A DNA stretch of 64,000 nt from Paraspadella gotoi (Eukaryota; Animalia; Chaetognatha), in NCBI GenBank assembly GCA_051294375.1, contig JBJCIZ010000239.1, forward strand, positions 4,345,834-4,409,833, read 5' to 3'. The notes below the pieces were generated by a model. That model did no database searches and was not told where the DNA came from. It saw only the letters and a list, made by a program, of their open reading frames with translations. The position numbers and the translations under genes are program-made. Of the stretch, positions 2,601-60,149 are shown one piece after another; the stretch's first letter is position 1, and every line of letters begins with the position of its first letter.

Positions 2601-5522
2601 ACTGCCTAATGTATCAGACCTCTGAATAATGAACTCCACACTACCTGACTATAGGTACAGCTGATACAAAAAAAACCAAACTATTCATGTTTTTGTTAGA
2701 AAAGCCATCTTGCCGTTCTAGACTCGAGGCTATACACTAGGGTGAAGTGAAAGTTTGGAATCAAAATTTAGCAGTTATATTTTGAAAACGATCATATTAG
2801 TAAATACTGATCTGTAGTTATATTTTTTTACATATATAATAGCCCAGTCAGCTTATTTTGTATATAATACATTATATAGATTCCTCTATAATTTTTTTAT
2901 TTTGTCAGAACGTTTTACTCCTTTATTTTTCCATTTTTTTGACACGCTAAACGTTTCTCTGATTACGCAAAATATCATGTAAGAAATATAAAAATTAATA
3001 TAACCAATAGTTAGTTATTATATCTCGAATAGATGGAAAAAAAACCTCGTTTAAAATTCGATCGGAAGTGGGGTAACTAAGGCTTACCAATGCATCCTCC
3101 ACACTGATCGTTCTCTAAATAATTTTTTTTTATTTAATCATTTGAAAGGGAAAAAAAGAAAATTCAAATGCAGGTTGCAGAAAGAGTATAATAATCTGGA
3201 CATACTGACACAATAATCATGACCTTTTATGTCTTGTGAAATGGGGGCAGTAAAGAAACCTAAAAAATTCGATCATTAAGTCAGTCAATGAACCCTTTCC
3301 AATTGGCTATTCCGCGAAATTTTTTTTCTTAATTAAAATGGATGATAAATAATAGAATTAAATTCCTAGTATAAAGGTTGTATATTTAAAAGAAAATTAT
3401 CAATACAAAATAAACACAATAATGTCTTGCTTTGTCAAATATGTTGCCAGCTATGTAATTTTTAAAAATTTTATAATGATAAACAAAGCAGTGTGTCAAG
3501 CTTTTTGTTTGCAGTTAAAGATAAAGAAAAATGACGATTTTTTTTTCACGAGAGAAGAAGGTAGACATCCAGACTGTTTATATCAAGCTGAATACATTTT
3601 ATATATTATCATTTTTAATATTTTAAAAAGACATTTTATCAAGCTATTACAACAATTTGTGCTTGTTTTTTACTTTAACTGAAAAATACAAGCAAATTTA
3701 TGCAGTTAAAAAAAATTTAATGGTAATCAAAATGTAATTTAGCCTTTCCTATTTCAAATTACAAAAAAAAAATAAAAAAATTCATATGCCTTCATTGAAA
3801 TTTTTAATGCAAAAAACTGTTATACTTTTAACCCTAATTTAACAAAAGCTGTGTAAATAATTATGGATAAAATATAATAAAAACTGATTTTAGAAAGATG
3901 TCCCATGATTAGGGCTTTAATTTGATACCATGCCCACCTTGCTATCTTTTTTCTTTCAAAAGTTATTCAAGAAAATAACTTTTTTTACCATTAAAGAACT
4001 AAGGATTTGAACTACGCAGTACAAATCTTTGTTAAATAAAAATTTCGGCAAAGCAGGAGTATCTCACTTAATTCTATTGGTACAATACTTAAATTTTAAT
4101 ATAAAACTTGAAGAAAAATTTTTTGTCATCCAGAGACATGTCACTTTCAGTTGTACCCATCGCAATGAGTTCATTTATGGTAAATGCTTGAAGAAATCAG
4201 CGAAACGTTTTCTCTTTTTTTTAAATAGTTAGTACTAGCGCGTCAGAAATCTTTAGAGAAACTTGAAAATTTTATTCTGATAAATTTGGTCTTTTAAGGC
4301 TTACGTTTATGACCATATCTTGGAAACTATTGCAAGAATTTTAAAACGGTTTTTTGCAAGTGAATATTGACATCATCCTCCAGGGGTTGGCATAAAAATA
4401 TATAAAAAAATTAATTAAAATTAGCTCTCCTATGAGGTATCTACATTATATAATGTCAAAATTTCAAAATAGTTATTTTTAAATTGCAAGAACAGATTCA
4501 GATTTTTCGTAAAAAGTTAATAAAAAAAATATAAATCTTTTTTAAAAATTATATCATTATATAGGTTAAAATTATAAAAAACTATATTTTTAAGCTGGAA
4601 ATTAAAAATTGCCATTTTAAATATAGTTTTTTTTATATTTTTAACCAACTTAATGAAAGAATTTTTAAAAAGAATAATTCTTTTTAATATCAACTTTTTG
4701 CAAGGAATCCAAATCCGTTCTTAAAATTTAAAAATATATATTTTGAAATTTTAGCTTATTATATACTTTTTATTATATATAAATATAGCTCACTGGTGCC
4801 CACTAATGTATAAAATAAAAAAAATAAATTTACCAAAGTATTTTTATTGGCTTTTATTTTCATATTTTATAAGCTAAATTTTAATTTTATAAAATTTAAT
4901 TATTTTCACATCACTCTACTATACTCATCTGATTCGCTTTTAAATCCACCCCACTTCCCCCCTGGTCAATCAAGAGATTTCCACGAGCATTATCTTCGGC
5001 TATGGAAGCGACCTATCCCTGTATTTAACTCAGATCGATCTCAATCTACATTTGCCGCTCTACCGTCTTAATTTCAGGAGGTAAATTATATTTATTGTTA
5101 TTATTATTTATTATTATTATTTTATTCATTTGGTCTGATAAAAATGGCGAACAAAATGAAACACCGTTTTTTCCACCACTAAATCTTTGCAAAATCACGA
5201 TTTTTCCACCACTTCCCTTTATTCCACCACTTCTTTTATTCCACCACTTCTGCTTTTGACTCGCTTTCAAGCAACCCTTCATCTCATTAACCCACATTTT
5301 CCACCACCCCACCCACATTTTTCCACCTCCCCCCAATTTTCCACCACCAACCTTCCTTCTATTCCAGAACTTCAGCCTTCGACTCGCCCGCCAACCACCC
5401 CGGAGACGTCCCTCTTCTCTTAGACGAGTTACCTCTTTCCGCCAAAACGAAAGATGGGGTCAGCGTCACCGACGCCCTCGTCGACGCTTACGGAAACATG
5501 ACGGGTGTGAAGGCGAATTGTG

Positions 5523-6179
5523 GGCTCTCTTTTCCCAGAGTGCCCCATTTCTGTTTGTTGATCCCAGAATTTTAATTTTAATCTTAATTTTTTACTATTG
5601 TCGACTAAAATCTATCAACAGTTTACCAGCAGCAATTTGTGTAGGAGGCAAGTGATTCGCCTCCCAACCCAAAGGTTCGGGGTTCTAACCTGGTGGTTGC
5701 TCTTAGCAGTTAAAAAGGACGGGGCGCTTAACCCGCCATTAACCCGCCATTAACCCGCCATTAACCCGCCATTAATCCGCTTGTAATACGGTGTTACAGC
5801 CTTATCCAAAAGCTCAGGGATTGTTTTTATGAACGGTTCTGTCATTAACAATAAATACCGTTTCTTCATTACCTAAATATATTTTTGACCTTGTAAACTA
5901 AACCTTGAGCTTATTTTTTTAACTTTAATCCTAAACCTTAACCCTAACTTCATCCTAAACCCTTATCCTTAATTTTTAGTCCTGACCTTTAACGCTAAAT
6001 GTTAATCCTTTACCTAAATCCTTAACCCTAATCACGAACCAAATCCCTTACCTTAAACACTAGCCTAATCTGTAGTCTGATCATCCACCTCCGATGTAAT
6101 ATTTAAATTTTAATTTTAAAAAAATTAACCGAATTCCCAAAATTAAAATAAATCGGGGCGTTCTAGAGAAAATAAAGCC
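5523..6179. mobile_element. Telomeric-repeat MITE (GG...CC TIRs, ~8-bp TSD) with nested SINE-A
   Basis: TIRs GGCTCTCTTTTCCCAGAGTGCCCCATTTC / AAATCGGGGCGTTCTAGAGAAAATAAAGCC; flanks GAATTGTG / GAATTGTA; internal degenerate CCCTAA repeats. Confidence 0.75.
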
Positions 6180-7488
6180 GAATTGTAGAAGGGGGGATTA
6201 GGAGCCCATTGCCGCCTTCTTTTCCAAAACCTCCCAGTTTCAACTTAAATTTTAAGTTTGAAGTTAGCGATTATGATTAGGGATTAGGTTACAATTAGGG
6301 ATAAGGGTTAAGACTTAAACTCAACTTTCAGATAAGGATTATAGGTAAGGGTTATATGTAAATTTAAGGATTAAGAATCTATATGGGGTGCTTTAAAAAA
6401 TTTTAAAGATTTGAGGGCCATAATCGGTTTTTGGGGAAGGAAAAATAAAATGTTATTATCATCGGGAAGACAATTGTTTGACTGACGAACGAATGAATAA
6501 ATGAATCTATAAGTGATTGAAGGAAGGAAGAAAGAATGTATTATTTAATTTCTAAATTTATCAAATATTTAATGAATGATAAAATTAATGAAAAAAAAAA
6601 AGTTTCCTTTTTAATTGATTCCAGCGAAAGAACTAACTAATTTGCACATCGGCAACAAAGAGATATCCCTCGTAAATTATCAACATCATGATAAGATTAG
6701 AGGGATTGGATATTTGGCAGAAAAGTAAGTTCCTCTTTTTGATGACTTTTTTTCTCATGCTGATTCAATGGATTTAATATTCCATAGTGTATTAAAATCC
6801 GCCAGACTCCTTCGCTATTTTTTTTTGGCCCTCCTGTAAGACAAGCTCATGTCGCATTCATTATCGATAACCTTATAACTTGGTCAAAGTAAGGTTTAAA
6901 AATTATTTGGGTCCCTTTAAAAAAATGTTTAACACCATTGTATTGTATTCTTACGTGATATTTAACCATAATTTTTTGAAAATGTTTAACCCTATCCTTA
7001 ACCCTTAACCGAAAGCCTAACCATTATCGTTTACCCAATTTCTTATCCTATTTCGTTAACTTACCCTGTGGCTCATTGTGTAGACGCGTCAGCTCATGAT
7101 CCATGATAGTCCCCGGATCGGTCCCCTATGATACCTACCCTGCGGGAAGCGAGAGGACGGCCGTAAACCACCTCGTGGGCATGGAAAACTTTCAAGACCC
7201 CTTCCATTGCTGTTAAAGAAGTTGCGAATAGCCATTTTCAGCCCACTTGGTCCCTTATCTGCCTCATCCACAAGCTAACCTACTTTGTTAAACTTTTTTC
7301 AAGAAAAATATTATATTATAACAATTTAATTTCGATCTTTTTACCTCCTTCGATTTTCATCCCAGCGAAACGAAAAGCGTAACGAGTTTTTGGTTATCTC
7401 AAGATCCCCAAACCCAGAGAATGTCATTCTGCAACGTTGATCAAGTCTTGAAGGATATGAACATCGAATTTTATTAATGACGTCGTCG

Positions 7489-7953: not shown

Positions 7954-8539
7954 TCGTCTCTCTCTCTCTCTCTCTCCCTCCCGCGCCGTAGTCGGAACGG
8001 TCCTTGCAAAAGAGTGACAAAGCCGGTTAAACTTCCGGAAACATGCTTATTGCTTAGCTGCCTACTGTCGAATTCTAAGTTCCGATAAGTCAGGGCAACA
8101 CGGTGTAAATATCTCCCATACCAAACGGACACGAACTGTGTAAGATGGGCGTTCTGGGAAAATAGGGCTTTTTTGTTGCCCATATATTTCAAAAGCGCCT
8201 CATTTCTGTTCTTTAGTCCCTGAACTTAATTATAACCCCGATATTTAACTTAATCTGAAACTACTAATACTAATACTAATCCCTAATCCACTAATCCCTA
8301 ATCTTCAGCCTCGTCTTTATGACTGAGCTGGCGAAATCATCTCATTACAAACGTGCATCCCGGGTTCAATCCCTTGGCATCCCCGCTTTAGTTAAAATGT
8401 AACGGAGCCGGTCTAATCATGCCTTACTTTTCTGGTAACGCTCCATACTCGCTTGCTCGCCCGCTCTCACTATGGCAATAAGATCAACACCTTCTCTCAG
8501 ACGTTTTTTTCAGTAAGTAAGTAAATTAAATTAAGTTAT

Positions 8540-8750
8540 ATGGTGGACTAAAATCCAGCCATTGGTGCCGGAGGCAATTCATTCGTCTCCCAACCCAAAG
8601 GTCCGGGGTTCTAGCCCGGTGGCCGCCTAGCAGTAAAGAGGGACGGGGCGCTTAACCCGCCTGTAACACGGTGTTACAGCTTGATCCGAAGCTCAGGGAC
8701 TGCTTGAATGGTTCTGTCGCTAACATATATAAATAATTACTGTCTCTTCA
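8540..8750 (+). mobile_element. SINE-A, tRNA-derived (~235 bp)
   Basis: TGGTGGACTAAAATCC.. head, tRNA-like block with B-box GGTTCTAGCCC, hairpin CTGTAACACGGTGTTACAG, ends CTCTTCA. Other copies at 5598, 28424, 33397, 41660/42075 (-), 56200, 61342 and 62629. Confidence 0.8.
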
Positions 8751-9456
8751 GCTAATTCTTTATCAAATACTTAACCTCGATCTTTATTTAAAACCCGGTA
8801 AAAAAAAGAAGAAAAAAATTAAATAAATCTCTCGAATTTACCATCAGACATCCCCGGGAAATTACCATGTTGTCCACAGATTCCCGATGTCCATTTTGAG
8901 TATAAAACCCGAGAGATGTCGCTTCTCTGCCAATTTGATCTTTTTAACGGAACGAAAGTATTAAACTAAACTAATTCTTAATTCTTCGTCTTTATCTCAA
9001 ATTAATTCTCGATACACAACGAAAAAGAAAGAATCTTCACAATACTTAATACATAATATTTTAATTCGGTCGACGTTGAATAATTTTGTTTTCTAATTTC
9101 TAAAAAAATAACTAAAAAAACTAACAAATGCTTAAATATGAAATTCAAAACGAATTACTAAATAAAAACAAAAACAAATCCGAAACTACATATTAAACCC
9201 AAAATATTTTACATAAACTCAAAAAAAAAAATTTAAAGCATAAAGATAAATAGAGATTAAAAGGAATACTTAAAATAAATGAGAAAAAAAACCCAAGTAA
9301 AAATTACAAAGCAAATAAATAACTAAATATATTTTTAAAAAATAAAGAAACTAGCGAGTAATTAATTAAATAAACTAACGAATAAACGATTAATAAATGA
9401 TAAAAAATAATTAAATAAATACGTAAATAAATTAATACAAAATCAAAACTCCCAAA

Positions 9457-10108
9457 ATGTCGAAAAATCCACGCGTTAAGTGGACGAAACCTTCCGCTCG
9501 CTGTTCATGCATCCTCGTCGTCGTCGTCGTCGTCGCCGTTCTCGCCGGCGTCATCGCTTCCCTAAAACTGACGGCACTCTTATCCGAAACCGCACCGTTT
9601 CCGTTCCTAATTCTTAATTTTAATATATTTTTATGTTTATATGTTTATATGTTTGTATGTTTATAATAAACATATAATATATTTTTTTAAATGCTTCGTC
9701 CAAGCTTGATGCGATCTCTTACCCTTATCCTTGATTCTTATCCCTAATTCCTTACCTTAATCTCAAACCCTAATCCTTAACCCTAATCCCTGACCCTAAT
9801 TCATCTTCCTTAACCTTAATTCTTCATCCTTAACCACTAACCTAAAAATCAAGCATAAAAAAAAAATAATAATTCTGAATTTAAACTGAAATCGGTCGGT
9901 TTTCGGAAAAGATGGCCAAATCGTCGACGTCGCCGATTCTAAAAACAATGCCGACGAATGAGCTCGAGGAACGGGCGGCGACGGCGGCGCTTCTGAAATC
10001 GCCGGTGGAAGCGGCGCCGATTTCTGTCCAGGAGAAGACGCCGACAACGACGATGGCGACGACGACAGAGCTAAGCGAGTTTTCCACCGATGGTTCGTTG
10101 ATTGATTT

Positions 10109-10163
<55 letters not shown>

Positions 10164-11032
10164 GATTTAATTTATTTATTTATTTATTTATTTATTTATA
10201 CGTTAATTCATTGAAAAAAGGATGGAGGTCTTAAACCACCATAGCCCGACCAAATGAACGAATGAATGGATAATTTTTATATCTATTGTACAAATTTCGA
10301 AATGTTAAAAAAAAAAGCGTGGAGACATGTGTAGTGACTTGTATTTTAAATTTGAAGTTGCTCAATGTTGTCGGGTATTGTTATAAGTCTATATAAGCAT
10401 GACATCTTCAGTCTTGACCCGGTGAGTAATACCATCAGCTCATGACCATTAGGTACCGGGATCGATCCCCAATGGTATCTGCCCTGCGGGAAGCGTGGGG
10501 ACGGCCGTAAACCGCCTTGTGGGCGTGGAAAACCCTGAAGCCTGGTTCCAAGCCCAGGACCCGTTAGAGATGTTGCGGACAGCACTCATCGGCTCACTTA
10601 GCGCCTTATTTGGATTTATATTGTATAATTTGTATAAGTATTGTATGGTATAAGTTTAATAATTACGATTATGTTCATTTCCGTTTCATAGACATTCTCG
10701 GTAGATTAAGAGGAGGAAGAGGAAGAGCAATAAAGAGGCGGGGGAGGAGGAAGAGGAGGAGGAGGGGAAAGTCGGGTAAGCAAGAGAGAGAGAGAGAGAA
10801 AGAAAATAAAAGAAGAAAGATAGAAAGAAAGAACGACAGAAAGAGTAGAGTTAGCAATGGTAAAAGAAACAAGAAAGAGAGAAAGAAAAAAAGAAAGAGA
10901 GAAAGAAAATAAAGGGAAAAAAATGTAAAAAACAAAAGATAATACATGAAATAAAAGGGAAAAAATGAGAAAAATAGAAATAAAGATAAAAAAACGAGAG
11001 AAAAAAGAAAAAAAAGAACCTTTTAACTTAGA

Positions 11033-11085
<53 letters not shown>

Positions 11086-12101
11086 GAAGTCGCGGCGTTC
11101 CAACTCCGCGGAGCCGTGATCACGAAATGCTCGGGTCCGCAGAAATACTCCGATGACACGGGACAGAAGGTTAAATGCGAGGGTCCACCGCCGAGGACGA
11201 GAATGGAGGAGGATCCGATACTTATCAGGGACTGGAAGGTAATAGAGATCAATCAATCAATCAATCTATCCGTCAATCAATCAATCAATCGATTGATTAA
11301 TACCGCGAAGGAAAAATAAAAACTGACGCGGATCACATTTATTCAAAAATTTAAAAAAAAATGTAAAAATATTACATCGAGATAATTTAAGTTTGTGTCG
11401 GTTGAAAAAGTTGTGTTTCATTTATATACAATACAATGCAAAAGAAAATTAATTAATTCCTGTAACCTGTAACCTGTTCCGCCTTACTACGTAGTACGTA
11501 ATGTTGATCAACGTAAATCGTGTTCGCTCATCGTCGAGCACTGTCGTTCGTCAGCGATCAACGAACCTCGTCGTGCATTCCTCTTTCATACGGAATATAA
11601 TGTCTTCTAACGACATCCGTGTCATGGAAGAAAAAAAAAGAACTAGAAAAGAAATGTTTTAATATCCTTGTGAGTAGTGGTGGCGAAAAAAGAGGAACTA
11701 AAAATGGATATAAAAAATCTTAAAAGCATAAGGATCAAGCCATGATGATAGTCATTCATTGATGCGATGAATCATTCAATCATCGATAAAAATCTGCACA
11801 AAGAGAGCAGCACTATTTAGCAGTGATTGAGGTGATAAAAGAATGATAATAAAATTATAATAAATCAAATCAAATCAATCAATTAATCAACCAACCAAAC
11901 AATCGATTTAATCAGTCAACCAAACAACTAATCAACCAAATCAATTAATCAAGGATTCAATCAATCAATCAATCGAACGTAGGGCCGAGTGGGAAATGGC
12001 TTCTCTTTTCAAGACGGAATCGTCGTCGTTAAGAATCCAGGATTTTATTACGGATTCGTGGACTATCATTTCCTACGAGTCGGACAACGCTGCAAGTTTC
12101 A

Positions 12102-12165
<64 letters not shown>

Positions 12166-12655
12166 GGTTAAGTTTTAAAATTAAGTTAAAAAATTTAAAA
12201 AAATTGTTTTAATAATTAAAAAGGATTTGGGTGAGATATTTAAGTTAATGGAGGCGCTTCTAAAAATAAAAACAAAATTAACGATATATGGATAATTTTT
12301 ATATTGGTTGTGCCAATTTCATAATCTCTTTCCTCTCTCTCCCTCTCCCACTCTCTCCCACTCTCTCGCTCTCCCACTCCCTCCCTTCCCCCTTCACTGC
12401 CTCCCTCCCTCCATCACACAGCTCCGTTTCCACCGTTCCGACCGCCAGCTCGGCCCGCCACTCATCTGCTATTCCGAAACGCCCGGCTTGGCCAGAGAGA
12501 ACAGGGATTACTGGACGCCCTGTTACAGGGCTTTTTTGCGATATTTCCAACCGGGCGATCGGATCAGAGTGGAATACAAGCAGACGTCCGATTGCTCGGG
12601 AGATGTTCTCGTTCCGCTGCGCCATTCGAGATTCGGGATGTTTTTCGTGGGTTAG
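9457..12655 (+). CDS. TNF-superfamily ligand 1 (type II membrane protein, Thr-rich stalk, C-terminal TNF homology domain)
   Basis: Exons 9457-9573 (or -9654), 9912-10092, 11087-11238, 11983-12102, 12422-12655. TM ILVVVVVVAVLAGVIA; THD motifs AAFQL, W, NGFSFQDGIVVVKNPGFYY, FQPGDRIRV, SRFGMFFVG*. Confidence 0.85.
9573..9917. mobile_element. Telomeric-repeat MITE copy forming TNF1 intron 1
   Basis: Decayed TIRs GGCACTCTTATCCGAAACCGCACCGTTTC / GAAATCGGTCGGTTTTCGGAAAAGATGGCC; internal CCCTAA-like repeats; flanks AAACTGAC / AAATCGTC. Confidence 0.75.
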
Positions 12656-13732
12656 ATTTTGTAAGGCGCTATTTTCCGATAGCGTCTTATTGTTTTTTAA
12701 AATGTTTTTTTTCGGGGTCGATTTTCTAATTGTTTCCCCCTAAAACTGGGGTATAAAATAAGTATAGAGTATGTAAAATATTATGCCTCGCCATTTTGTC
12801 TTTTTCTTCTCTCACCCAACTTTTATTTTTGACCGTACATAAACTGTCCCCACGCGTTCAGCCAAAACCTTTTCTGGTTATTTTGTCGGACTTTTGTCGT
12901 TCCCTATGTCGTAATTTTGCGAGACTTAAGATAATTATTTAGTTAGTTTTTTTGACAATCTATAAGTAGAATTGTCCATCATCAACTACAGTTTTACAGG
13001 ATTATTTATAAGTTATTTCACAGAGTACATTGAACTATAACTGGTATTAAATGTGATTCAAATGTGGCCAAAATTTTAATTCTGATAACTTATCTTTCAT
13101 TTTATTATTGAAATAAAAAAATAATAAAAATATAAAAGCAATAATTAAAAAAAACAGTGCCTAAAAACTAGTATAAAATTGGTACAACCAATAAAATATT
13201 AGATTTTTATTTTATAAATAAGCTAACTTATCTCTGGTTTTTTAAAATATTTATAAATATTCTGCAAAAATAGAATCTGAGAAATATTAATTGGTTTCAA
13301 ATAAAATTTTAATTTTAGTATAAATCTAGCTGATAAAAAAAAATATTTTTTTTTGATCTGTCCTTATATAATTTTTTATTTGATAGGATCGGATTGAAAT
13401 TAAAATTTGATTAAAATACTTGCTAAAAAAAGTTAATAATAAAAAAATAATATAAAAGCTATTGAATTTTATTGGATAACATTAATACAGAATTATAGAA
13501 TCTCAAATATAAAACTTATTTTCCAAAAGCTCCCATTTTGGATTAAATTTATAATTAAGAAAGGTTTTCATAATTTAAATATAAGGTATGGGGTTATAGT
13601 TATGGATTATATTATGGGTTAAAGATTCGTGTTAAGGATTAAGTTAAGGTTATGTTTTAAAGTTATAAAGATTAGGCTCAGGAACAGAAATGGGCCGCTT
13701 TTGGAAAATAGTTCTCAGAAATGTTCATCGTT

Positions 13733-15124
13733 TTAGGATTCAGGACCGGACTGATAATCCTCCAAACCGTACTCGAAATGTTTGTTGAAAGTCACGCGGA
13801 GTTTCGTCCACGCGATGTCGCATCTGTCGTTGGCGAAAAAAAAACAAAAGATCAAACGCGGGATAAAAATATTATAAAATATATATAAATAATCAAATAA
13901 AAATAAAATATAAAAAAACCCCAAATATTTCAAATTAAATAGCTTTTGAGCTTTGCTTTCCATAATGAAAATGAGAGAAAAAAAAGTTTGATGGAACCTT
14001 CCTTGTATTTCAAGGAAACTGATTTTATATTTTAACCTATGATGAAGTCAAAAGCCTTTTAAATATCGCGACTTTCTCAAATAAACTGATTAACTTATAA
14101 GAAGAGTTTTATTTATTTTCTAAAAAAACATTTAATTTGAAACTACAAATCTTGCTTTAATGAAGTCTCGGAAAAAAATTACATAAACTAAATATTCTTT
14201 AGATAAATTCATAATTAATGGAATATAATAGTTTAATGCGATATAGTTTTTTATTTCTGTTAGAGGGCTACTAATTCTCTACCCTGGTGGCATAAGAGCA
14301 TGCATTCCCTGTTCCTACCAAGTGCCCTTAGAGACACTCTATTACAAATGTGTCCCATATCTGTTTTAGTCATCGAATAAAATCAATCAGCCAATAAATC
14401 AGTCGTGGTAGTCGTTTGTTTTCGTCGTCGTCGTCATCGATGTTGTCATCTTCGTCGTTCGTCGTTCGTCTTCGTCGTTCGTCGTCGTCTCTCACTTTTC
14501 GTCGTCGTCGTCATCTTCCTGTCGTTCGTCGCGTCGTTCTTCACTTTTCGTCGTCGTCGGGGCACTTGTCGTCGTCATCTGTCGTTCGTCGTCATCTCTC
14601 ACTTTCGTCTGTCGTCGTCGTCGTCGGTCTTCTCACTTTTCGTCGTCGTCGTCGTCATCCTCGTTCGTCTCGTCATCTCTCACCTTTTCGTCGTCGTCGT
14701 CGTTCTGTCGTTCGTCTGTCACTCTTCACTTTTGTCTCGTCGTCGTTCGTCGTTTCGTCGTCGTCTCTCACTTTTCGTCGTTCGTCGCTTCTGTTGTCGT
14801 CTTCTCTTTGTCCTCGTCGTCCCGTTCGTCTGTCGTCTGCGTCTCTCACTTTTCTGTCGTCTCGTCTCTCACTTTTCGTCTGTCGTCGTCGTCTGTCGTC
14901 GTCTCTCACTTTTCGTCGTCGTCGTCGTCTCTCACTTTTCGTCATCGTCGTCGTCGTCGTCGTCGTTCTCTCACTTTTCGTCGTCGTCGTCGTCGTCGTC
15001 GTCGTCTCTTCACTTTTCGTCCCAAGTTGAATTAAATTCTTTGATCGACTTTGACATGGCGACGAGGAAGATGGACATGTCGCCTTGCTGGACTCCCATG
15101 CGCGCATGGTCGTAGCTGTAAGGA

Positions 15125-15831: not shown

Positions 15832-18019
15832 TGATAATGGTGATGAAGATGATAGAAAAGCTTTTGAAAATTATTATAACTAAATATTGAACAAAACGAC
15901 ACGAACTAATGAACTAAAGAAATGAATGAACAAACGAATGAACGAACGAAGGGAACTAACAAACGAATGAACGAACGAATGAACGAAAAACAAACAAACG
16001 AATGAAAAAAGGGAAGAAAAAAACGAATGAACGAATTAACAAACAAATGCACAAAAAACAAATAATGAACGAACGAACAAACAAATGAACGAATAAATGA
16101 ACAAAATCAAAACGAATGAGAGATCCAACAAACGGATGAATGAAAGTACGAATGCTGAAGAAGAAGACTTATATCGCAACGGTAGTGTTTATTGAAGAAA
16201 AGTCCCTGGCCGGAATAGTATTAGAAAAGAAGGAAGTTAGTAGAACTCGAGAAACGCGGAGAGTGGACTGAAAAGGAACGGATCCTCGGGAGAGGGAGGG
16301 GAAGAGGAGGATGAGGATCGAGGAATGAACAAAGGAAATGAACAAACAAATGAAGGAACAAATGAACAAAACCAAACGAACCAACGATCGAACTACCGAA
16401 CAAAAGAACGAAAAAAAAACAAACAAAAAAAAAAAAAAAACAAAGGGAACGAATGAAGGAACGAAGGAACGAACTAACGGAACGAACTCCCCTTCTCTCT
16501 CTTACGTGATGATTATGTTTGTGAGATCGAATGTGTCTCATAGCTTCTTCGACGCTTTTGCTGTTCTGTGTGTAGTAGAACCTGACACGTGGCGACGCAC
16601 GTGGCCGCCCGGGGGGGGGATTTAAGTAAAGAATAAATCGGCCGTATTTTCGGAAAGCGCTCCCATTTCAGCTTTTAAATCAAAATTTGGTAATTTTTTT
16701 TTTTGGGGGGGGGGCTCGCTTTTTTCCCTGCGTGCCTCATTTTTTATTTGTCCGTACCAGAATTTAATTTTAATCTTAAAATTTAACATGTATGCGTTTA
16801 TATTTTATAAATTTATAAACCAATCCCTAACCTTTAACCCTAAACGCCGGTCTCTAACTCAAATCTCAAACCGTAATCACAAACATCGTCTTTAACCTTA
16901 ATCACTGTGAGAATTGTCGCTTATTCTCATGCTAGGGCGGACTAACATCTAATGTTTCGCCCGTAACGAATCGTCTCATCCTTAGGAAACTCGTAAAAAC
17001 GACGTTTCTCCGGGCAAAAGACAAAAGAAAATGGCCGTAAAAATATTGGACCAAAAAGGGAAGGGAAAAGCGCGACATGAGGCGAAATATCTTTCATACT
17101 CACCTAATCCTTAACCTTAACCTTTAATTCCGAATTGAAGATAAAAATGGGGCGCTCTGGGAAAATAAGGCCATTCTCTCACGCATCCATAACTTCTCCG
17201 TCACCTCTCCATCATGTCCGGCGACAGCGAGAAGAAAGTTTCGAAGAGATTATTGCCGAATTGCTCGGGGTCTATTGCGATGTTTGGCGCCCATGTCGAC
17301 CGGATCAGATTTCGTTCCTTTTCGTTTTTTTTTTTTGGGGGGGATATAAGGCGGGGGGGGAACGGGGGGGGAGAGGAAGGGGAGGGGTGGGGGGGGGAGA
17401 GTAGAACGTAGCGCGGCGGAGGGGTGTTGATAAGAATGTTTAAAACTATTTGCTATATTTATATTGATTTGCTTTACCCATCTTTACTTTACCCATCTGC
17501 GATTTCATCTCTCCCCATCGGCAATTCAAACTTTATCCATCTGCTATTCCAACTCTCCACATCTGCAATTCAATCTTTATCTATCTGCTATTCCATCTCT
17601 CCCCATCTGTAATTCAATCATAATCAATCTGCTATTCCATCTCTCCCCATCTACCATTCAAACTTCACCCATCTACTATTCCATCTCTCCCTATCTGCAA
17701 TTCAGTCTTTATCCATCTGCTATTCCAATTCTCCACATCTGCAATTCAATCTTTATCCATCTGCTTTTCTAACTTATCCCAATATTTTCTATCTGCAATT
17801 CCATCTATCCTCAATCTCTTCTCATCTTTAATTCCATCTCACTACTATCCACAATTTCATCTCTCCCAATCTGCACTTCCACCTCTTTCCATCTGCAATT
17901 CCATCACACCTCATCTTCAATTCCATCTCTACCACATCTGCAATTCACCTCTGACTCATTTGGGTAAGAGGATCTGGATCGTCGAGTCCCTTGTCGCTTT
18001 TGCAACAAGAGTTGCCCAT
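13733..18019 (-). CDS. Globin with N-terminal acylation signal (globin X-like architecture)
   Basis: Exons 18019-17949, 17317-17205, 16581-16506, 15786-15710, 15115-15014, 13823-13733: MGNSCC..DPLTQMSQRERNLIRSTW..FFSLSPDMMERF(CD1)..KH(E7)..MGYDH(F8)ARMGV..AWTKL. The first junction is one G short of frame. Confidence 0.85.
14405..15020. repeat. (GTC)n/CTCACTTTTC minisatellite in globin intron 5
   Basis: About 14 units of CTCTCACTTTTCGTCGTC with variable GTC runs. Confidence 0.9.
16639..17172. mobile_element. Telomeric-repeat MITE in globin intron 2
   Basis: GGCCGTATTTTCGGAAAGCGCTCCCATTT ... AAATGGGGCGCTCTGGGAAAATAAGGCC with CCCTAA-like interior. Confidence 0.7.
17480..17948. repeat. ~41-bp minisatellite in globin intron 1
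   Basis: Tandem CCATCTGCTATTCCATCTCTCCCCATCTGCAATTCAATCTT-like units. Confidence 0.85.
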
Positions 18020-22877: not shown

Positions 22878-25574
<2,697 letters not shown>

Positions 25575-27400
25575 GATCTTGGCGCGCGGTGGACAACAAC
25601 GGCGACAACGACGACGAAGATAACGACGATAACGACGATAACGACCTGCAAAGACGACCCACCCCTTCAACCACTATCATAAATTTGACCTTACCCACTA
25701 CTTACAACTACTTACAACTACTACTACTACCACTACCACCACTTCTAGTACTACTATTACTACTACTACTACTACACACTACTTACAACTACCTTAACTA
25801 AGTAATTGATTAATTAAATAACTTATCATCTGATTAGATTCCTGCCGCTAAATGATCGAGAGCAGATCCGGCTTTGTTCCTCAAACTTGCTTAATATTAT
25901 ATACTTGCTTAGTCTGTATTTCTTATTTATTTATAATATGCTTTATCACATTACTTGGTAAAGCTAAGAACACTTTATTTATAGTATGCTTTATTTTATT
26001 TCTGAGTATGGCTTCATTTGCTTGTTTTTTTCTTGTGCTAGTCGTGGTTCGCCTTTTTTCATGGTACGTTATTTAGTATTAATTCTAACGAACCATTAAT
26101 ATTATGAACAAGCATTAGTGCCGCTTGCATTATTTTTACAACGCTCCTTAGACGTAGTATTTACATGTTTCTAAACCTATTTATTTATTATTTAGAGATA
26201 ATCCAAATCTATTTCTACAAGTCCCCGAGGTGTTTTGACTAGTGGTGAATGTGGCTTTTGTCACTAAGGCGTAGTAAAATTTCTAAATTTAACTTTAATT
26301 AAAATTCTAAAAGTGAGGAACGAACAACATTATACTAATGAACATTTATGTAATAAAAAAATTATAATAATTTTTACAATTTACGCAGTAAGCCATATTT
26401 ATACTAGTACTAATCCAATAAATGTTAAAATTTCAAAACAGTTTTTTCTAAGATTTTTTTTTCAGATTTGGATTCGTCATAAAAAGTTGATAAAAAGAAA
26501 TATAACTCTTTTTGATAAATTCCTTTATTAAGTGGGTCAAAAATTAGAAAAAGCTATATTTTAAGCTGAAAATTAATAAGTATTTTTTATTTTTTTTATT
26601 TATTTATTATTTGAGGCTGCATTGGTTGTATTGGAAATATTTTATTAACGATCTCGTTGGCGCTTGTTAGATTATTTGAAAGCTTTTGAAGATCGTTTTC
26701 CCTTCAAAGAAAAATTATTTTACAAAATTATTACTTATGTAAATATATCTTTATTTTTAATTCGGATTTTAAATCATAATCCTTCTTTTGGGGATCTGAA
26801 AATAAATCAGAGTAAAAACAAATTTTCAATGAATTGACTTTATGAAAATAAAAAAAAATAATAGTGGGAACAATTATCTAGTCATGTACTGTTTTAGTTT
26901 TACACAGTCATAGCTCAAAATATATCTCTAGGTATAACATCTTGTTATGATTTATTTTTAGAGAAAGAATGAGAAGGAGAGAGAGAGACAGAGAAAAAAA
27001 GAGAGATAGAAAGAGAGAGAGACAGAGAGAGAGAGAGATGAAAACCCGGTTTGTCGAGAAGACAAAAATGTCAAGGATTTTTCATTTTTAGTTTTTCAAG
27101 ATTAAAACAAATCGAAGTTCGACCTTCAGATTTCTTACATTAAAAGAAAAAAAATTGGCTTTTTTGGATTTATTTTTCTTAATCTCTCGACTTTCTTTTT
27201 CTTATTTTCACTAACTCTTTCACTTAACTCTTTCACTTACCTATCACTCAATCTCTCCACTTTCCCTTTCATCTAAATTTCACTTCTTTAATTTAAATTA
27301 ACTTATTTTGTTTAGTTTATCTTTAAGTTTGTCTACAAATTTATTCTTTTTACTTTTGTAGTACATTAACTATGTATTGCTTCACCAAATGCTAACCTCT

Positions 27401-50843: not shown

Positions 50844-53800
50844 ATGAGTTCGGAAAGCGAAAGAAAACAACATCCAAAAAGAAAACAAAGTCAAGCGACC
50901 TACGATAAAACACAGAGGTAAAAACCATGAGTTTCAAAAATTGATTCATGGTGCAGAGGTCTGACTTAAAAAAAGATTTTTTTTTAATCTAAAATAGAAA
51001 AAAGATACATGCGTTTCATTTCGAATAGAGAACGAATGATTCAGTATATTTGTAGGCATCCAACGAAACTATGGCAAAACAAGGTAAAACTTAACGAGAA
51101 TGATATTTCAATAAAAAAAATTAAAAAAACACAGAAAAAAAACTAAGATTATTCTCAAAAATTTTTTTTGAACAGTAAATCTTACAAATAAAGTTTTTCC
51201 GACGCTGGTTAAATGTAATGTAATGTAATGTAATCAACTAAACTGCTTAGTAAGGCGGGCCAGAATTGAATATTTTTTAACTTTTATTTTTATCCTTTTA
51301 CATCCAAATTGACTTATGGTGTTAGATTTTGATTAAATTCATATTCCTCATGCATGGAAGCATTTTAATATTTAACAATATATAAGAAATACTTAAAAAA
51401 ATTTTTTTTGGAACATTTGATTTTTAAAAATTTTGATGATAAATGGTTTTAAATTTTAAAAAACCTAAAAAAATCATGATCATTATCTCATTTAATAAAT
51501 TTGATAGTTTTTGTCAATTTTTATAGACAAATTATTAAAATTTCAAAAAGTTTTAATAATAACCTTCATCTAACTTTTCAAACTTTATCAGAATCGGATA
51601 AAAAAAAATTAAAATTTACCCCCAAAAATTTTTAACATTATACAGTATTTGGATAATATAAAATAGCATTCATGGGTTTAACTATAAGATAAATCTAAAT
51701 TTTTTTTTTATTTTCATCTTTAATAAACACTTTAATAAACAATATTCATACCGGACTTCTGTTATAGTTTATAGTTTATAACCTATTCCGCCTTACTGCT
51801 CAGTTGTATTACTAATGTGTTTTGTAGTACAAGTTTAGTAGCATTATAGTCGTAGTACAAATGGACATGAATTTGCAATTTTTTTCAAAAGCGATCTGCC
51901 ACCAAAGGATGGAGCCAGAGCTTGGGTCACCACTGCCGCCTTTTTCCTCATAATTTTTCTCAACTTTGGCAATGCTCGTCTTCTTGGGATGTTTTTCGAA
52001 GAATGGCGAACAGAATTCGGAGTTCCAAGAAGTCAGTCGTCGTGGATGACCGCCACAGGTCAGATTTGACTCAAGTTCGACGTGATATGACATGACGCGA
52101 AATGACATGACTACAATAACTTTCTTGCAATTCAGCCCGCGACTTTATTTTCGTTCATACAAAGTTTAAGAATCAAGATCTTCACCGAGCCATACAGTGA
52201 TAATTTAGTAAAATGTTACCCAGTACGCATCCATGTATATTCACAATTGCGATTATCACCCTCGCGACCCTCGTATCCTCTTCAGCCTTTCTCATGATCG
52301 GTTTGGGATCGCCCATGGCCACGTTTCTCTTCGGCATCTTGCCACCGTCAACCGTCGTATTTTTGGCGGGAATTCTGACATCGGCGGGGTTCGTCGGATT
52401 GTCTTTCGTGGAATCCTTTGCTGGCATGGTCGTTATGGTGAGCGTACGGTTAGTACTGGCGATGTAGATGTCATCATAGATACCTAATATATCATTTTTA
52501 ATGTTATGAAATTGGTACAACCAATATAAAAATTATCCATTCATTTAATAAATAAGCTATCTTGCCCCTGACTTTGGACAGGCTTTGGTGGTTTAAGGCC
52601 TCCATCACTCTTACAAGATAATGACATAGCAGGTCCCTGCAAGCTTTCAATCAAGACTCTCTCACAGTCTCGTTTATTCACTCCCAGAGTACCTGGCTTC
52701 CCTATCAATGAAGTGGAAAATATTTCAAAGAATGTTTCAATTGTATGAAAAGACCACTCCCTTAAGTATTAGATCGGGGAATACTTATTGTACTCCGCAC
52801 TAGCATCAAAATACAAGGAGCTGAATTTTATGAAATTGGTACAACCAATATAAAAATTATCCATTCATTTAATAAATAAGCTATCTTGCCCCTGACTTAT
52901 GTTAACGATAGTAGTGTTTAAGGAAAATCCTTAATTATTGTTCTAAAAACGTTCATCTTGAATATAATTTTATAAACAACTATATTTTGATAAAAAGGTC
53001 ATGATTTGAGTCTAAATTTTTATCAAAATAAGATTTACTACAGTGAATCGCTACAGCTTTTCTGTTTGAGCGTGGCAACAAAAATTTTGTAGTTTAAAAA
53101 AAGTTGGTCCTTATTTTCCGAGAACGCCCAATTTTATCTTAAATTTGAGGGATTATTTATCCCAGTTGTTTCTCTCTCTCTCTCTAACAAGTTTCACTTC
53201 TTTTCACAACTCACTCAATCTGTCATCACCTTCAACCTGTCCTCACATCTGACCACTATTCTGTCTCACCACTTTGTTAGAAAACTTTTACCCTCTCTCT
53301 CTCTCACTCTTCTTTTGTACAAAATTTTTAATGATTGTCAAAAGCTGATGAAGGCTTGAAAATAGCAAGCCGAAACAAGTCCGTCTTTCTTAAAAAATAA
53401 AATCGTTATAAAATTTTCAAAATTTTGCTTTCTCTAATCTTAAATTTCGAAATAAGTTAATTTCTAGAGTTCAAGATTAAGTTAAAGGTTGGGGTTAAGG
53501 ATAAAGTTATGATTAAGGTTAAGATTAAGATTAAGGTTAATGATTATTGATTAAGGTTATTGATTAAGGTTTAGGATATGGTTTGTGAAAAAGGTTAAAG
53601 ATTTAGGTTAGGGATTAAAGGTTTAGGGTTTTGGATTAAAGTTAAAAATTAAGGATAAAGGCTTAGAGTTAAGGTTCAGGATTAGTTTATGGTTAGGAAT
53701 TAGTATGAGGAATTAGGGTTAAAGATTTGTTTATAAGTTTAAAAAATATTTAGGTTAAATGTTAAAGTTAAAATTAAATTTTGGAAAAAAAAACAAAAAA

Positions 53801-56800: not shown

Positions 56801-57535
56801 ATAATTTTTTCTGAAGTAAATTCTTACTGTTCTTACTGTTTCGACAATTAAATATACAACTTTCGGCCTTATTTTCCCAGAACGCTCCATTTCATCTAAA
56901 ATTCTCAATTATATAGGTTAATTTTTTGAATAAAAGAATAGATTAAAGGTTAAGGTTTAAGATTAGGTCAGGGATTAAATTACTGATTCAGGTTAGGTAT
57001 AAGGATAGTGATTAGGGTTAGGGATAAAGGTTTTGGTTAGAAGGATTAAGTATTAGGGTCATAGGTTTAAAAATATATTTAGATTAAACTTCCGATTTAA
57101 AAAAGGATTATGGAACAAAAACGGGGCCCCTTTGGTTAAAAAGGAAAGCCCAACTCACTCTACGCCCCTCATTCCCCCCCATTCAGCATCGTCTTTGGCC
57201 TCTCCTACGGTGGATGGTACGTCTTCTTTTTCTCCTTCCTCGCCGAAGTAGCGACTCCGCGTCAACTTCCCGTGGCGGTAGGGGCGTGCTACACGGGCGG
57301 CGGGATGTCCTCCCTGCTGATCCCGCCTTTCGCCGGCTTCATTTCCGACAGCGTTGGACAATACACGGTAGTCTTCTACTTTTTCGCTGCGCTGCTCGTT
57401 TTTGCTGCAGCCACGCTGATCTTTGTGGTTTTCCTGCAGCGGAAGCGGGATCAGTATAGACATAGGGTCAAGGAAATCGCGTTGAGCTTTATAGACGCTC
57501 TCGCGCTGAAAGACGGAGAGGTTCTTTTGAAATAA
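50844..57535 (+). CDS. Monocarboxylate-transporter family (SLC16-like) MFS transporter
   Basis: Exons 50844-50917, 51892-52058, 52286-52437, 53878-54056, 54764-55041, 55445-55607, 57187-57535. Motifs PPKDGARAW, SQWSDKYRP, EFGWRG, LNNCVAALLLR, PPFAGFISD; about 12 hydrophobic segments. Confidence 0.92.
53106..53837. mobile_element. Telomeric-repeat MITE carrying a nested hammerhead element
   Basis: TIRs at both ends, AAAAGTT flanks, TTAGGG-like interior; Penelope-like insert at ~53170-53420. Confidence 0.7.
53341..53385 (+). ncRNA. Degenerate hammerhead ribozyme copy
   Basis: CUGAUGA-A-GGCUUG-aaaauag-CAAGCC-GAAAC-AA-GUC-CGUC; the 5' arm of stem I is mutated. Confidence 0.6.
56865..57150. mobile_element. 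Telomeric-repeat MITE
   Basis: GGCCTTATTTTCCCAGAACGCTCCATTTC ... AAAGCC; flanks CAACTTTC / CAACTCAC. Confidence 0.75.
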
Positions 57536-60149
57536 AAAAAACGATAGACGAATTATTATTTTTTCCATTTAAATTACTCCTAACAACTCGGGAATCGGAA
57601 GTACTACATTATAATTTTTTTTGCAAAAAAACTATTACATATTCTTAATACTAATAGTATAATATTAAAAATAAAAATAAAGGAAAACGGACATGCTTAA
57701 TAAGGCGTAGTAAATTTTCTAAATTTAACTTTAATTAAAATTCTAAAAGTGAGGAACGAACAACATTATATTAATGAACATTTATGTAATAAAAAAATTT
57801 ATAATAAATTTTACAATTTACGCAGTAGGCCATATTTATACTAGTACTAAACCAATAAATGTTAAAATTTCAAAACAGTTTTTTGTAAGATTTTTTTGCA
57901 GATTTGGATTCGTCATAAAAAGTTGATAAATAGAAATATAACTCTTTTTGAAAAATTCCTTCATTAAATGGGTTAAAAATGAGAAAAAGCTATATTTTAA
58001 TCTGAAAATTAACTTTTTCCACATTAAATATAGTTTTTTTTTAAATTTTTAACCCACTTAATGAAAGAATTTTTAAAAATGAGTTATATTTTCTTTTGTC
58101 AACTTTTTACGAGGAATTCAAATCTGCAATCAAAATTAAGAAAAGCCTATTTTGAAATATTTCGATTTTATAAGGTTAGTACTATATATTAAGGCGGGTC
58201 AAAATTGAACACTTTTTTTTATAACTTTTAATTCTCTCAAAAAATTCCTTTTTTTCCTTCTATTACTAAACGATTTTCAATGTAACTTTTTGAATTAGTT
58301 CATTGGGTTGTTGCACTGAAGCTTTTAAATATTTATTAATATATAACAAATGACAAAATTTTTTTTAAAAAAATTGTTTTTAAGAACGGATTCCTATAGA
58401 GCTTGAAAAGTTAAATGAAAGTTATTACTACAATTTTTAAAATTTTGACAAGAAATTGGTTAAAAACAGAAAAAACGTTAAAAAATCATCATCATCATCA
58501 TCATTGGCTGAATTTTATAGTTTTTTAAAATTTTTATCATAAAACAAAAAAATTTTAAAATTTTGTATTAATAACCTTCAACTAACTTTTAAGAGCTCTA
58601 TCAGAATCCATTAAAAAAATTCAAAATTCAAAAAAAATTTTTAACTTTATATAGTAATAAAATAATCTTTAAATGCTTCGCGTGCGCTTATTAATAAGAT
58701 AATTTTTTAAAATTATTTTTATTTTCATATTCTCTAACAGTCACTTTATCATTATTTATTTGAGAGAACTTCTAGTTTTCAACTGTTCCGGCCTACTATA
58801 TATAAATATAGCTTACTGCGAAAATAAAAAAACATAAAATTAATTTTTTTTACAAATTAATGTTCACTGATGGTATGTTGTTCATAATTGACTTTTAGAA
58901 TTTTCGTATGTAACTTTCACTACGCCTTAATGCTTAAGTTTTTACATTTATATATTATTTAAAAAAATAAATTTTAAACATAAAAAGTATTTTTGGACAA
59001 TATAAACTTATCTTCATTATCGTAATGTCAGTTATGTGTCGTATGCCAAAAAGAAAAAAAACATCGCTTTTTGGCTTCACAGTGGTGTTTAAAATCTTTT
59101 CCCTTCTGTTATTGCCTTTAATTTCTCTGTGGTATTCATCATTTATCATTTGTGCTGTTTACCTATATCACTTTTGTTGTTTTATCTGCTATTATTAATA
59201 ATCTTACCCAATCTCATAATTTACAATCTTGGAATTATTTCACACATTATTTTTCTTTACCTCTGACATAAAAAATAAAAAGTATCAACTAATCATGATT
59301 TTTATTTTGAATTGCTCATTTCCATGGGTATTATTAGTTAAGATAACAGTTAACTATAAGTTAGAAAATATATAATAGTTTTTTATTGTATTATTTTTAA
59401 TATTTTATTAAGTTCAAAAAAGTTTTTCTGCTTTTGTCTTAGTTACTAAAAAATATAATTTTTTTTCATAAAATCGGGAACAATTTAAAAGCTGCATAAG
59501 TTTTAAAAACACTGCCAATGCAGCAACTAAACTAATTATCTAGTTAAAGTTATATAAGCAAAAACTTTTAATTTGTACAAGGTTTATTTTTGGTCACAAA
59601 CAAAGGTAAAAAACCGATATATTTAACAATATATGAAAACATTCGGAAATAAAAAAATCATTATCATTAACAAAAACATGGTCAAGTAGCATAACAAAGG
59701 GTGTTAGTAAATCAAGTTTAATTTGAGAACATTAGTTATCCTAAGCTAATGGGTATATAAAACTGGCTCCATTAGAAATGTATAATAAATGAATGAAAAA
59801 AAATGTAAAAACAGCAGAGGAAAAACAATAATATTTATTTTGCAAATCATAAAACTGCAATCCGCAATTTTTAAAAACAAGCATCTTGATATTTATTACG
59901 TATCTGTAAAGTATTAAATAAATTAACCAAATATAAACTGAAATAAGCTACATTAACTCTCTGAATCATTTGCACATTATAATTCTCATGGTACAACATC
60001 AAACTATTAATCATAATGATGCAGTTATACCAGTTTAGAGCTTACAAAATGTTAGTGGTATAGACTAACAGATAGAAAGATCAACCTGGAGACTAAAGTG
60101 TAGCTTATAAAGAGCAGCGTTTGTTTCGGCGTGAAATGTTCAAATATTC

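What the first reader, a model, noticed from the sequence alone, without database searches (positions are those of the whole stretch)
9565..9925. A transposon that became an intron inside a TNF coding exon (introner-like intron gain)
Seen: the whole gap between the TM exon and the stalk exon of TNF1 is one MITE (9573-9917). Both flanking duplications (AAACTGAC, AAATCGTC) start on a codon boundary, so removing the element plus one TSD restores a continuous ORF (..SLKSSTSPILK..). The only usable acceptor (AAAG|ATG, 9911) lies inside the right TIR. The phase-0 donors that keep the TM intact (ACG|GCACTC 9574, or TTT|GTATGT 9655) lie inside the element. The rest of the gene is intact although the copy is decayed, and paralogue TNF2 has no intron here. 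Inference: the element is spliced out using its own sites, adding about 5 codons, so this family can generate introns.
Basis: partly seen in the sequence, partly recalled or inferred. Interest (0 to 1): 0.85.

Follow-up and report, generated by a model that had tools for sequence, protein, structure and literature searches.

The report
Old transposon inside intact TNF exon
A decayed 345-base jumping element interrupts what was likely one coding exon of an otherwise intact, partly spliced TNF-like animal gene; it is likely cut out of the RNA, perhaps guided by a hairpin its ends are predicted to form, but no RNA join across it was found and its family does not look like an intron maker.

Summary
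The anatomy holds. A 345-bp MITE (9573-9917) of an abundant family with 8-bp target duplications sits between the membrane anchor and stalk of a TNF-like gene. Removing it plus one duplication gives an open 262-codon frame.

The insertion looks old: duplication 5/8, no sister copy at 98% in deep DNA, no empty site seen. Yet the gene is intact and its exons 4-5 are spliced in RNA, so simulations favour a living gene.

All nine in-element donors up to the first stop score below 25 of 25 local donors, 9911 is not the only acceptor (10031 is better), and both proposed sites lie in a predicted stem. No RNA junction crosses the element, but the 5' mRNA was not captured and a spliced antisense RNA overlaps the gene. 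None of six other two-ended copies forms an intron, so this is not an introner.

New: this copy's ends pair better than expected (rank 1 of 169). That points to hairpin-guided excision (SOS splicing, 0.36) over cryptic spliceosomal splicing (0.27 in all) or a dead gene (0.27). The scan noted similar MITE-in-exon cases in other genomes.

The parts
9457..9564 (+). TNF1 coding start: basic N-terminal tail and membrane anchor (first half of the likely original exon 1)
   Evidence: open frame, GC3 0.67, 19-residue hydropathy up to 3.2
9565..9572 (+). left 8-bp target-site duplication, phase 0
   Evidence: family duplication is 8 bp; this pair matches 5 of 8
9573..9917 (+). non-autonomous terminal-inverted-repeat element (MITE), 345 bp
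   Evidence: ends match the family; one unbroken DNA contig at depth 97, no differences, no sister at 98%
9573..9638 (+). left arm of the predicted RNA stem; holds the GC donor candidate 9574
   Evidence: 47 arm-to-arm pairs with probability above 0.5; fold z -4.26
9626..9665 (+). 8-bp tandem repeat inside the element, holding GT candidates 9635, 9643, 9651, 9655, 9659; first in-frame stop at 9664-9666
9716..9846 (+). degenerate 13-bp repeat tract, shared with other family copies
9851..9917 (+). right arm of the predicted RNA stem; holds the AAG acceptor candidate (9911) and an in-frame ATG (9912)
9918..9925 (+). right 8-bp target-site duplication, phase 0
9918..10092 (+).
   Evidence: open, GC3 0.71, 24 of 30 NCN codons end in G; acceptor scores; donor not confirmed in RNA
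11087..11238 (+). TNF1 exon 3 (predicted)
   Evidence: open frame and GT-AG borders; sense junctions not seen in RNA
11983..12102 (+). TNF1 exon 4, start of the TNF-like domain
   Evidence: Pfam PF00229 E 0.0047, below the curated cut-off; spliced to exon 5 in run X5
12422..12655 (+). TNF1 exon 5 to the stop codon
   Evidence: ESM Atlas look-alikes carry C1q or TNF families at 0.86-0.91, a lead only; spliced to exon 4
11092..12008 (-). spliced antisense transcript over TNF1 exon 3, intron 3 and exon 4; introns 11978-11607 and 11473-11232 or 11466-11232; true ends unknown
   Evidence: three CT..AC joints in X5, GT-AG on the minus strand; longest ATG frame 48 codons
22878..25575 (+). TNF2, distant paralogue used for comparison (five predicted exons)
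   Evidence: 254-codon open model, weak blastp match to TNF1

Best explanation
A decayed 345-bp MITE sits between the membrane-anchor and stalk codons of an otherwise intact TNF-like gene; it likely landed long ago in a single exon, and the gene likely survives because the element's ends, predicted to fold into a long hairpin, would guide its imprecise removal from the mRNA (SOS-type or hybrid excision). The insertion point is in the unstructured stalk, so small scars would be tolerated, and about 3 in 10 possible cut pairs near the stem keep the frame open. Shown: the element, the duplication rule, the open frame after removal, splicing of exons 4-5, and no good spliceosomal donor. Inferred: the age, that the gene is alive, that the element is removed, and the hairpin route. 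Removal by any RNA-level route is put at about 0.63; this route at 0.36.
For: Age: duplication 5 of 8; both ends 21% and 30% from the leave-one-out majority, within the 9-45% range of 27 ends; flat single-contig depth over the element at 98% in DNA run X2 and single-contig depth over 9570-9723 at 90% in X7. Survival: a dead gene stays intact with probability 0.10 at 5% divergence and 0.01 at 10% with no indels, less with indels. The joint chance of an intact dead gene and 3 of 8 duplication mismatches never exceeds 0.004 in 21 settings, against 0.17-0.37 for the mismatches alone at 10-15%. Both halves of the split exon keep a coding signature. Exon 4-5 is spliced precisely in X5. Against the spliceosome: all nine in-element donor candidates up to the first stop score below 25 of 25 local donors, and the 9574, 9655 and 9911 sites are 60-86% paired. 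For the hairpin: after removing end-specific effects, this copy's pair ranks 1 of 169 first-by-second end combinations at 30, 40, 50 and 60 nt (z about -3.5), while the 5 other own pairs rank 16-149. It shares 5 near-private 5-mers, the most of 169 pairs. 828 of 2809 cut pairs near the stem are in frame and open. SOS splicing excises exonic DNA transposons by ITR pairing, imprecisely, and rescues genes hit in poorly conserved regions (PMC12779559).
Against: No junction across the element in any of 6 runs laid. In the RNA data set both element borders are covered by unspliced contigs, though these also retain intron 2 and may be antisense or precursor RNA. The stem is imperfect: 30 of 41 identical, longest perfect run 7; how perfect an ITR must be is stated as unknown in the paper. 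The good pairing may only mark a subfamily with symmetric ends or local templated repair; related motifs occur in other copies, and the intronic copy 16714-17172 also folds arm to arm (32 expected pairs). By alignment score the pair ranks 2-3 of 169, not 1. The element's first 30 codons are open up to a phase-0 GTATGT, which suits a spliceosomal route. The paper says such alleles are usually purged. SOS factors could not be looked for in this organism (no genome).
Confidence: 0.36

Rival explanations
1. The gene is dead or crippled: transcripts keep the element, stop at 9664 after 69 codons, and the frame has not yet decayed.
For: Every RNA contig over the element borders is unspliced; sense exon 2-3 and 3-4 junctions were not seen either. 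No good donor has evolved. A paralogue lies nearby. Symmetric ends would fit a younger subfamily.
Against: Needs a narrow age: intact with probability 0.38 at 2% divergence, but then 3 of 8 duplication mismatches have probability 0.003; joint at most 0.004. No sister copy at 98%. Exon 4-5 is spliced. The simulation assumes neutral, independent changes and a once-perfect duplication.
Confidence: 0.27
2. The spliceosome removes most of the element using weak cryptic sites other than the reader's main pair, most likely GT 9655 (or 9643) to AAG 9911 or CAG 10031, making part of the element exonic.
For: The element's first 30 codons are open in frame; 2 of 12 other first-type ends are open that far in the same frame, one of them itself read as coding. 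9655 matches 4 of 6 intronic donor positions, inside the 3-6 range of true donors. No AG lies between 9853 and 9911. Local donors are tolerant, with RNA-confirmed GTT starts. These pairs give open frames of 250-294 codons.
Against: 9655 has T at -1, seen in 0 of 25 local donors, and is 67% paired. It would add a second hydrophobic stretch (19-residue mean up to 1.9) that could flip the TNF domain inward (inference). Acceptor 9911 is 86% paired. Use of 10031 would make 9918-10031 intronic, yet it keeps 17 of 19 NCG codons. No junction seen.
Confidence: 0.22
3. Translation bypasses the element: a shorter protein starts at ATG 9912 from an internal promoter, trans-splicing or re-initiation, without the membrane anchor.
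For: ATG 9912 is in frame, has A at -3 and G at +4 (that this is a strong context is recalled), and is present in 1 of 13 second-type ends.
Against: The anchor exon is still open and coding-like. A TNF-like protein with no anchor or signal peptide would not reach the surface (established knowledge, recalled). No 5' end could be read from contigs.
Confidence: 0.07
4. One reading: spliceosomal removal from GC 9574 to AAG 9911, adding five codons, by a family that generates introns (introner).
For: The frame works (267 aa). The geometry echoes an Aureococcus introner that adds 12 bp from an 8-bp duplication plus 4 element bases (10.1101/2022.06.06.494994). An AAG acceptor (48871) and a GC donor (32877) may exist elsewhere in the window (uncertain, left out of the model).
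Against: The GC donor matches 3 of 9 positions and scores below all 25 true donors even when scored as GT. 0 of 26 kept acceptors have A at -3. Both sites are in the stem. 0 of 6 other two-ended copies form an intron; the other in-exon copy (5523-6179) appears to be read through to a new stop. Introners are reported as efficiently spliced, while RNA contigs here are unspliced.
Confidence: 0.05

Closest known systems
SOS splicing targets (Zhao et al. 2025, PMC12779559; seen: parts 1, 2 and 4 of 13 and passages; supplements not read)
   Same: DNA-transposon inverted repeats inside an exon, no good GU-AG sites, insertion in a poorly conserved region. The paper's endogenous targets include non-autonomous elements, one in the presumed pseudogene wago-2.
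   Different: Excision and its factors are untested here. The stem is imperfect and old, the host is not a nematode or human cell line as far as known (taxon not determined), and the allele looks fixed in a mid-gene coding exon.
Introners, especially the Aureococcus type carrying both splice sites and adding 12 bp (Gozashti et al. 2022, 10.1101/2022.06.06.494994, parts 1-2 of 5 read; Gozashti et al. 2025, PMC12130899, six passages; Mikina et al. 2024, PMC11282704, part 1 of 5)
   Same: MITE with inverted ends and an 8-bp duplication in a coding exon, frame-preserving geometry, insertion near genes. Animal introners are already reported (sea urchin, a tunicate, copepods).
   Different: One copy only, decayed; other copies are not introns; splice signals are weak and not conserved across the family; splicing not shown.
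Transposon insertions removed by cryptic spliceosomal sites (AKAP-17-independent GU-AG Tc1 splices in PMC12779559; older Tc1 and maize Ds cases recalled, not read)
   Same: Weak sites in or near the element would restore a frame with a scar.
   Different: Those are recent laboratory alleles; this one looks old and fixed.
TNF-family type II membrane ligands
   Same: N-terminal anchor, stalk, C-terminal domain with weak Pfam TNF and Atlas C1q/TNF resemblance.
   Different: No hit reaches a curated cut-off; no relative found in three sequence searches of the TNF-domain exons (searches gave none or repeat noise).

Membership tests
MITE (non-autonomous TIR DNA element) | terminal inverted repeats | tested here: met
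   30 of 41 identical between arms, 47 predicted pairs
MITE (non-autonomous TIR DNA element) | fixed-length target-site duplication | tested here: met
   8 bp, pooled 0.75 over 5 pairs; this copy 5 of 8
MITE (non-autonomous TIR DNA element) | short, non-coding, many dispersed copies | tested here: met
   345 bp; 27 ends aligned in 64 kb
MITE (non-autonomous TIR DNA element) | superfamily set by a partner transposase | not testable with these tools
   no genome held; GG ends with an 8-bp duplication recall Merlin, Mutator or hAT types (recalled)
Introner | several introns of similar sequence whose similarity reaches both splice boundaries | tested here: not met
   0 of 6 other two-ended copies has both ends at splice junctions in hand-annotated genes; window only, not the genome
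Introner | element carries or co-opts working splice sites | tested here: inconclusive
   in-frame pairs exist but donors score below 25 of 25 local sites; small hand-picked model
Introner | element is spliced out of the mRNA | tested here: inconclusive
   no junction in 6 runs laid; 5' sense mRNA not captured
Introner | empty site in an orthologue or allele | tested here: inconclusive
SOS splicing target | inverted repeats able to pair within an exonic RNA | tested here: met
   predicted only: z -4.26; 47.7-49.1 expected arm pairs in three contexts
SOS splicing target | multiple imprecise, mostly non-GU-AG excision sites near the repeats | tested here: inconclusive
   no excised form seen; contigs drop rare variants
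SOS splicing target | dependence on AKAP17A, CAAP1 and RTCB | not testable with these tools
   needs a genome and experiments
TNF ligand family | type II membrane anchor near the N-terminus | tested here: met
   hydropathy up to 3.2 after a basic tail
TNF ligand family | C-terminal TNF homology domain | tested here: inconclusive
   PF00229 E 0.0047, 17.3 bits against a cut-off of 23, on exon 4 alone; exon 5 no Pfam hit; Atlas C1q/TNF leads; whole domain not scanned or folded

The most novel reading that the evidence does not exclude
This is a natural, fixed, old transposon insertion in a protein-coding exon that an animal gene has carried for a long evolutionary time as a spliceosome-independent 'hairpin intron': selection has kept the two ends complementary so that SOS splicing removes it, instead of building GT-AG sites. 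It would show that SOS splicing can protect a gene permanently and is a route to a new class of intron.
Probability: 0.2. Interest if true: 0.85.

Novelty: new member of a known kind. Interest (0 to 1): 0.45.

Why it matters
A single transposon-derived intron in an animal would be a further example of a known process. The sharper point is that the discoverers of SOS splicing leave open whether it protects genes over evolutionary time and what repeat quality it needs (PMC12779559). This locus offers a cheap test: an old, apparently fixed exonic MITE with poor splice sites and unusually well-paired ends in an intact gene. One RT-PCR with long-read sequencing separates precise spliceosomal, imprecise hairpin-guided and no removal. 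Six literature searches listed no fixed coding-exon case of this sort beyond wago-2, but the library lacks most subscription journals.

Tried and rejected
No whole genome is held, so no genome-wide count of introns or subfamilies was possible.

No RNA holder is on record. X5 was shown to hold spliced RNA only by laying it. X5 and X6 gave identical records and count as one data set. X7, X8 and X9 are unspliced at intron 4 and look DNA-like here. 6 of 11 listed runs were laid (X2, X5-X9); X1, X3, X4, X10 and X11 were not. The uncovered stretch 9604-9769 in X5 is no evidence.

Protein searches: exon 5 gave no hit among longer proteins, two repeat-rich noise hits and one spurious PDB hit; exon 4 gave none in PDB. 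A transporter exon used to place the taxon gave none, so the organism stays an unnamed animal. Rfam found 0 families in 8000-13500. The first Pfam scan had exons 5 of TNF1 in the wrong frame and was repeated.

A 6- or 7-bp duplication with an extra terminal base was considered and rejected. CpG decay as the reason for this copy's better pairing was rejected because the window shows no CpG depletion (observed/expected 1.08). An older intron at this site was rejected: no GT or AG lies just outside the element and the flanks are coding-like. An alternative upstream anchor exon was looked for by eye in 8000-9450 and not found.

Splice model: 25 donors from 24 of 32 regions and 26 acceptors from 34 regions were kept by hand; 8 and 8 were dropped as uncertain, among them a possible GC donor (32877) and a possible AAG acceptor (48871). 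Only 4 donors and 3 acceptors are RNA-confirmed, and two donors are identical 9-mers. A stricter test for a strong in-phase donor (5 of 6 intronic matches) was not met by this copy and was met by 1 of 36 other copy-frame combinations.

Earlier findings by place and by sequence returned nothing.

Full report
The observation. The window is from an animal genome of undetermined taxon; no assembly is held. A coding stretch with a basic tail and a valine-rich anchor starts at 9457 and runs into a 345-bp AT-rich element at 9573-9917. A GC-rich, threonine/alanine-rich stalk resumes at 9918. The element's ends belong to a family with 14 first-type and 13 second-type ends aligned in the window. Five clean two-ended copies fix the duplication at 8 bp: pooled identity 0.75 at k=8 against 0.10-0.38 at other lengths. 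Two other end pairs show no duplication and were left out. This copy's pair matches 5 of 8, about a 5% chance event alone. Both duplications begin in phase 0, and removing the element plus one of them gives 262 open codons across four exons; keeping it stops translation at 9664 after 69 codons. The TNF label is probable, not proven: Pfam TNF at E 0.0047 on exon 4, below cut-off, C1q/TNF look-alikes for exon 5, and no sequence relatives.

Age and state of the insertion. The two ends differ from the leave-one-out majority by 21% and 30%, in the 9-45% range of the family; subfamily structure may inflate this. In DNA run X2 one contig crosses the element at depth 97 with no differences, no branch and no extra depth at 98% likeness, so there is no near-identical sister and no empty allele there; X2's study may be the window's source. 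X5/X6 bridge both borders, X7 the left one, X8 the right one by 30 letters, and X9 has no cover. At 90% likeness X7's depth over 9570-9723 equals its single contig. No empty-site joint is among the 15 of 34 joints shown or the 4 of 4. The allele therefore looks old and common or fixed.

Is the gene alive? Both halves of the split exon keep a coding signature (GC3 0.67 and 0.71; 24 of 30 NCN codons in the stalk end in G). In unbiased simulations a dead gene stays intact with probability 0.38, 0.10 and 0.01 at 2, 5 and 10% divergence without indels, and less with them. The chance of 3 or more duplication mismatches is 0.003, 0.035 and 0.17 at the same points, so the joint value never exceeds 0.004 in 21 settings (an AT-biased version is harsher). 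This favours a gene under selection since the insertion, on the assumption of a once-perfect duplication and neutral change.

RNA. No holder is on record as RNA, but one X5 contig aligns to 11979-12094 and 12419 onward with exactly five letters between, which removes the GT-AG intron 12103-12421 precisely. So the 3' part of TNF1 is transcribed and spliced. The same run holds three CT..AC joints, GT-AG introns on the minus strand, from an antisense transcript over exons 3-4. X5 contigs 9292-9603 and 9770-10087 cross both element borders unspliced, but the second appears to run on into intron 2 (its extra 40 letters add no depth at exon 3), and sense exon 2-3 and 3-4 junctions are absent too. 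These contigs are therefore not mature sense mRNA. The RNA neither shows nor excludes removal; contigs drop rare forms.

I built a small model from 25 donors and 26 acceptors picked by hand in the window, dropping 8 and 8 uncertain regions, among them a possible GC donor and a possible AAG acceptor. All nine in-element donor candidates up to the first stop score below every true donor. The GC at 9574 matches 3 of 9 majority positions; 9655 matches 4 of 9, all intronic, at the bottom of the true range. Donor 9655 would add a second hydrophobic stretch. In favour of a spliceosomal route, the element's first 30 codons are open up to 9655, which 2 of 12 other ends match in that frame, and no AG lies between 9853 and 9911.

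The family is not an introner on this sample. Of 6 other two-ended copies none has both ends at splice junctions. The family does favour exon edges: 9 of 18 ends measured lie within 65 bp of a hand-picked splice site or stop codon (no formal null). One other copy (5523-6179) sits in a last coding exon four codons before the old stop and appears to supply a new tail by read-through. An occasional mid-exon hit is thus expected without any intron-making design. Introners are defined as groups of similar introns with similarity reaching both boundaries and are usually efficiently spliced (10.1101/2022.06.06.494994, parts 1-2 of 5); animal cases are already known (PMC12130899, passages).

A different route. 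SOS splicing removes exonic DNA transposons from C. elegans and human mRNAs through pairing of their inverted repeats, imprecisely, mostly off GU-AG sites, and rescues genes hit in poorly conserved regions; hybrid and spliceosomal back-ups exist (PMC12779559, parts 1, 2, 4 of 13 and passages; supplements not read and may bear on repeat quality). I set up the pairing test after seeing that paper's listing. The element folds arm to arm (z -4.26) with 47 pairs above 0.5 probability, burying sites 9574, 9655 and 9911. After removing end-specific effects, this copy's own pair ranks 1 of 169 combinations by duplex energy at four lengths (2-3 by alignment score), whereas five other own pairs rank 16-149. 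It also shares the most near-private 5-mers. Of 2809 cut pairs near the stem, 828 keep an open frame. Against this: the stem is imperfect (longest perfect run 7), an intronic copy also folds arm to arm, and a subfamily with symmetric ends or templated repair would give the same pattern without selection.

Verdict. The element and its frame-restoring geometry are real. A dead or crippled gene is 0.27 and a bypass start 0.07. These odds are my judgement, not computed. It is a new member of a known kind, unproven, but a good test case for whether SOS splicing can protect a gene over evolutionary time. Similar MITE-in-exon cases were noted by this scan in other genomes; they are unchecked notes and were not used as support. 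Labels for neighbouring genes (ENaC-like, transporter, kelch, lectin-like) are by eye and from recall.

Noticed in passing
11092-12008, minus strand: Spliced antisense transcript over TNF1 exons 3-4 with two alternative donors 7 nt apart and no long frame; it may extend over the element and the TNF1 promoter.
   Followed up: partly
5523-6179: A second family copy inside a last coding exon, four codons before the old stop; read-through gives a 17-codon element-derived tail. It also holds a nested repeat at about 5600-5830 seen elsewhere in the window (8540-8740).
   Followed up: partly
ends at 6212, 13717, 16640, 17172, 35817, 40248, 47968, 53837, 57150: The family clusters within 10-65 bp of splice sites or stop codons (9 of 18 ends measured). 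Two copies (17172, 35817) begin exactly 10 bp into an intron, that is GT plus eight bases.
   Followed up: partly
5515-5522, 9565-9572, 53099-53106, 56857-56864, 60142-60149: The 8-bp targets look loosely palindromic (about RAAnnTTC), suggesting a target preference.
   Followed up: no
16582-17182: An intron of a minus-strand gene made almost wholly of two family copies; the complete copy also folds arm to arm.
   Followed up: partly
32877 (minus) and 48871 (plus): Possible GC donor in the ENaC-like gene and possible AAG acceptor after a long pyrimidine tract; unverified.
   Followed up: no
11978, 11473, 11466 (minus); 10093, 33763, 35827: Donors with T or C at +3 are common here; three are RNA-confirmed.
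   Followed up: partly
22878-25575: TNF2 shares the phase-1 first intron with TNF1 but has an extra intron and a different last-intron phase; both anchors are encoded by GTC triplet runs.
   Followed up: partly
10340-10650, 11713-11778, 12188-12341: Very high-copy interspersed repeats inside TNF1 introns (depth in the thousands); the first recurs at about 33200, 41800 and 49800 and looks SINE-like by eye.
   Followed up: no
8901-8907: TATA-like box about 550 bp upstream of the TNF1 ATG, by eye.
   Followed up: no
14400-15030: Long degenerate TCG-rich tandem tract that opens frames of over 200 codons on both strands; probably a repeat, not a gene.
   Followed up: no
12820-13007: Two contig versions differing at about 15 letters cover the region behind the TNF1 stop in X5, X6 and X8: a divergent allele or a repeat.
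   Followed up: no
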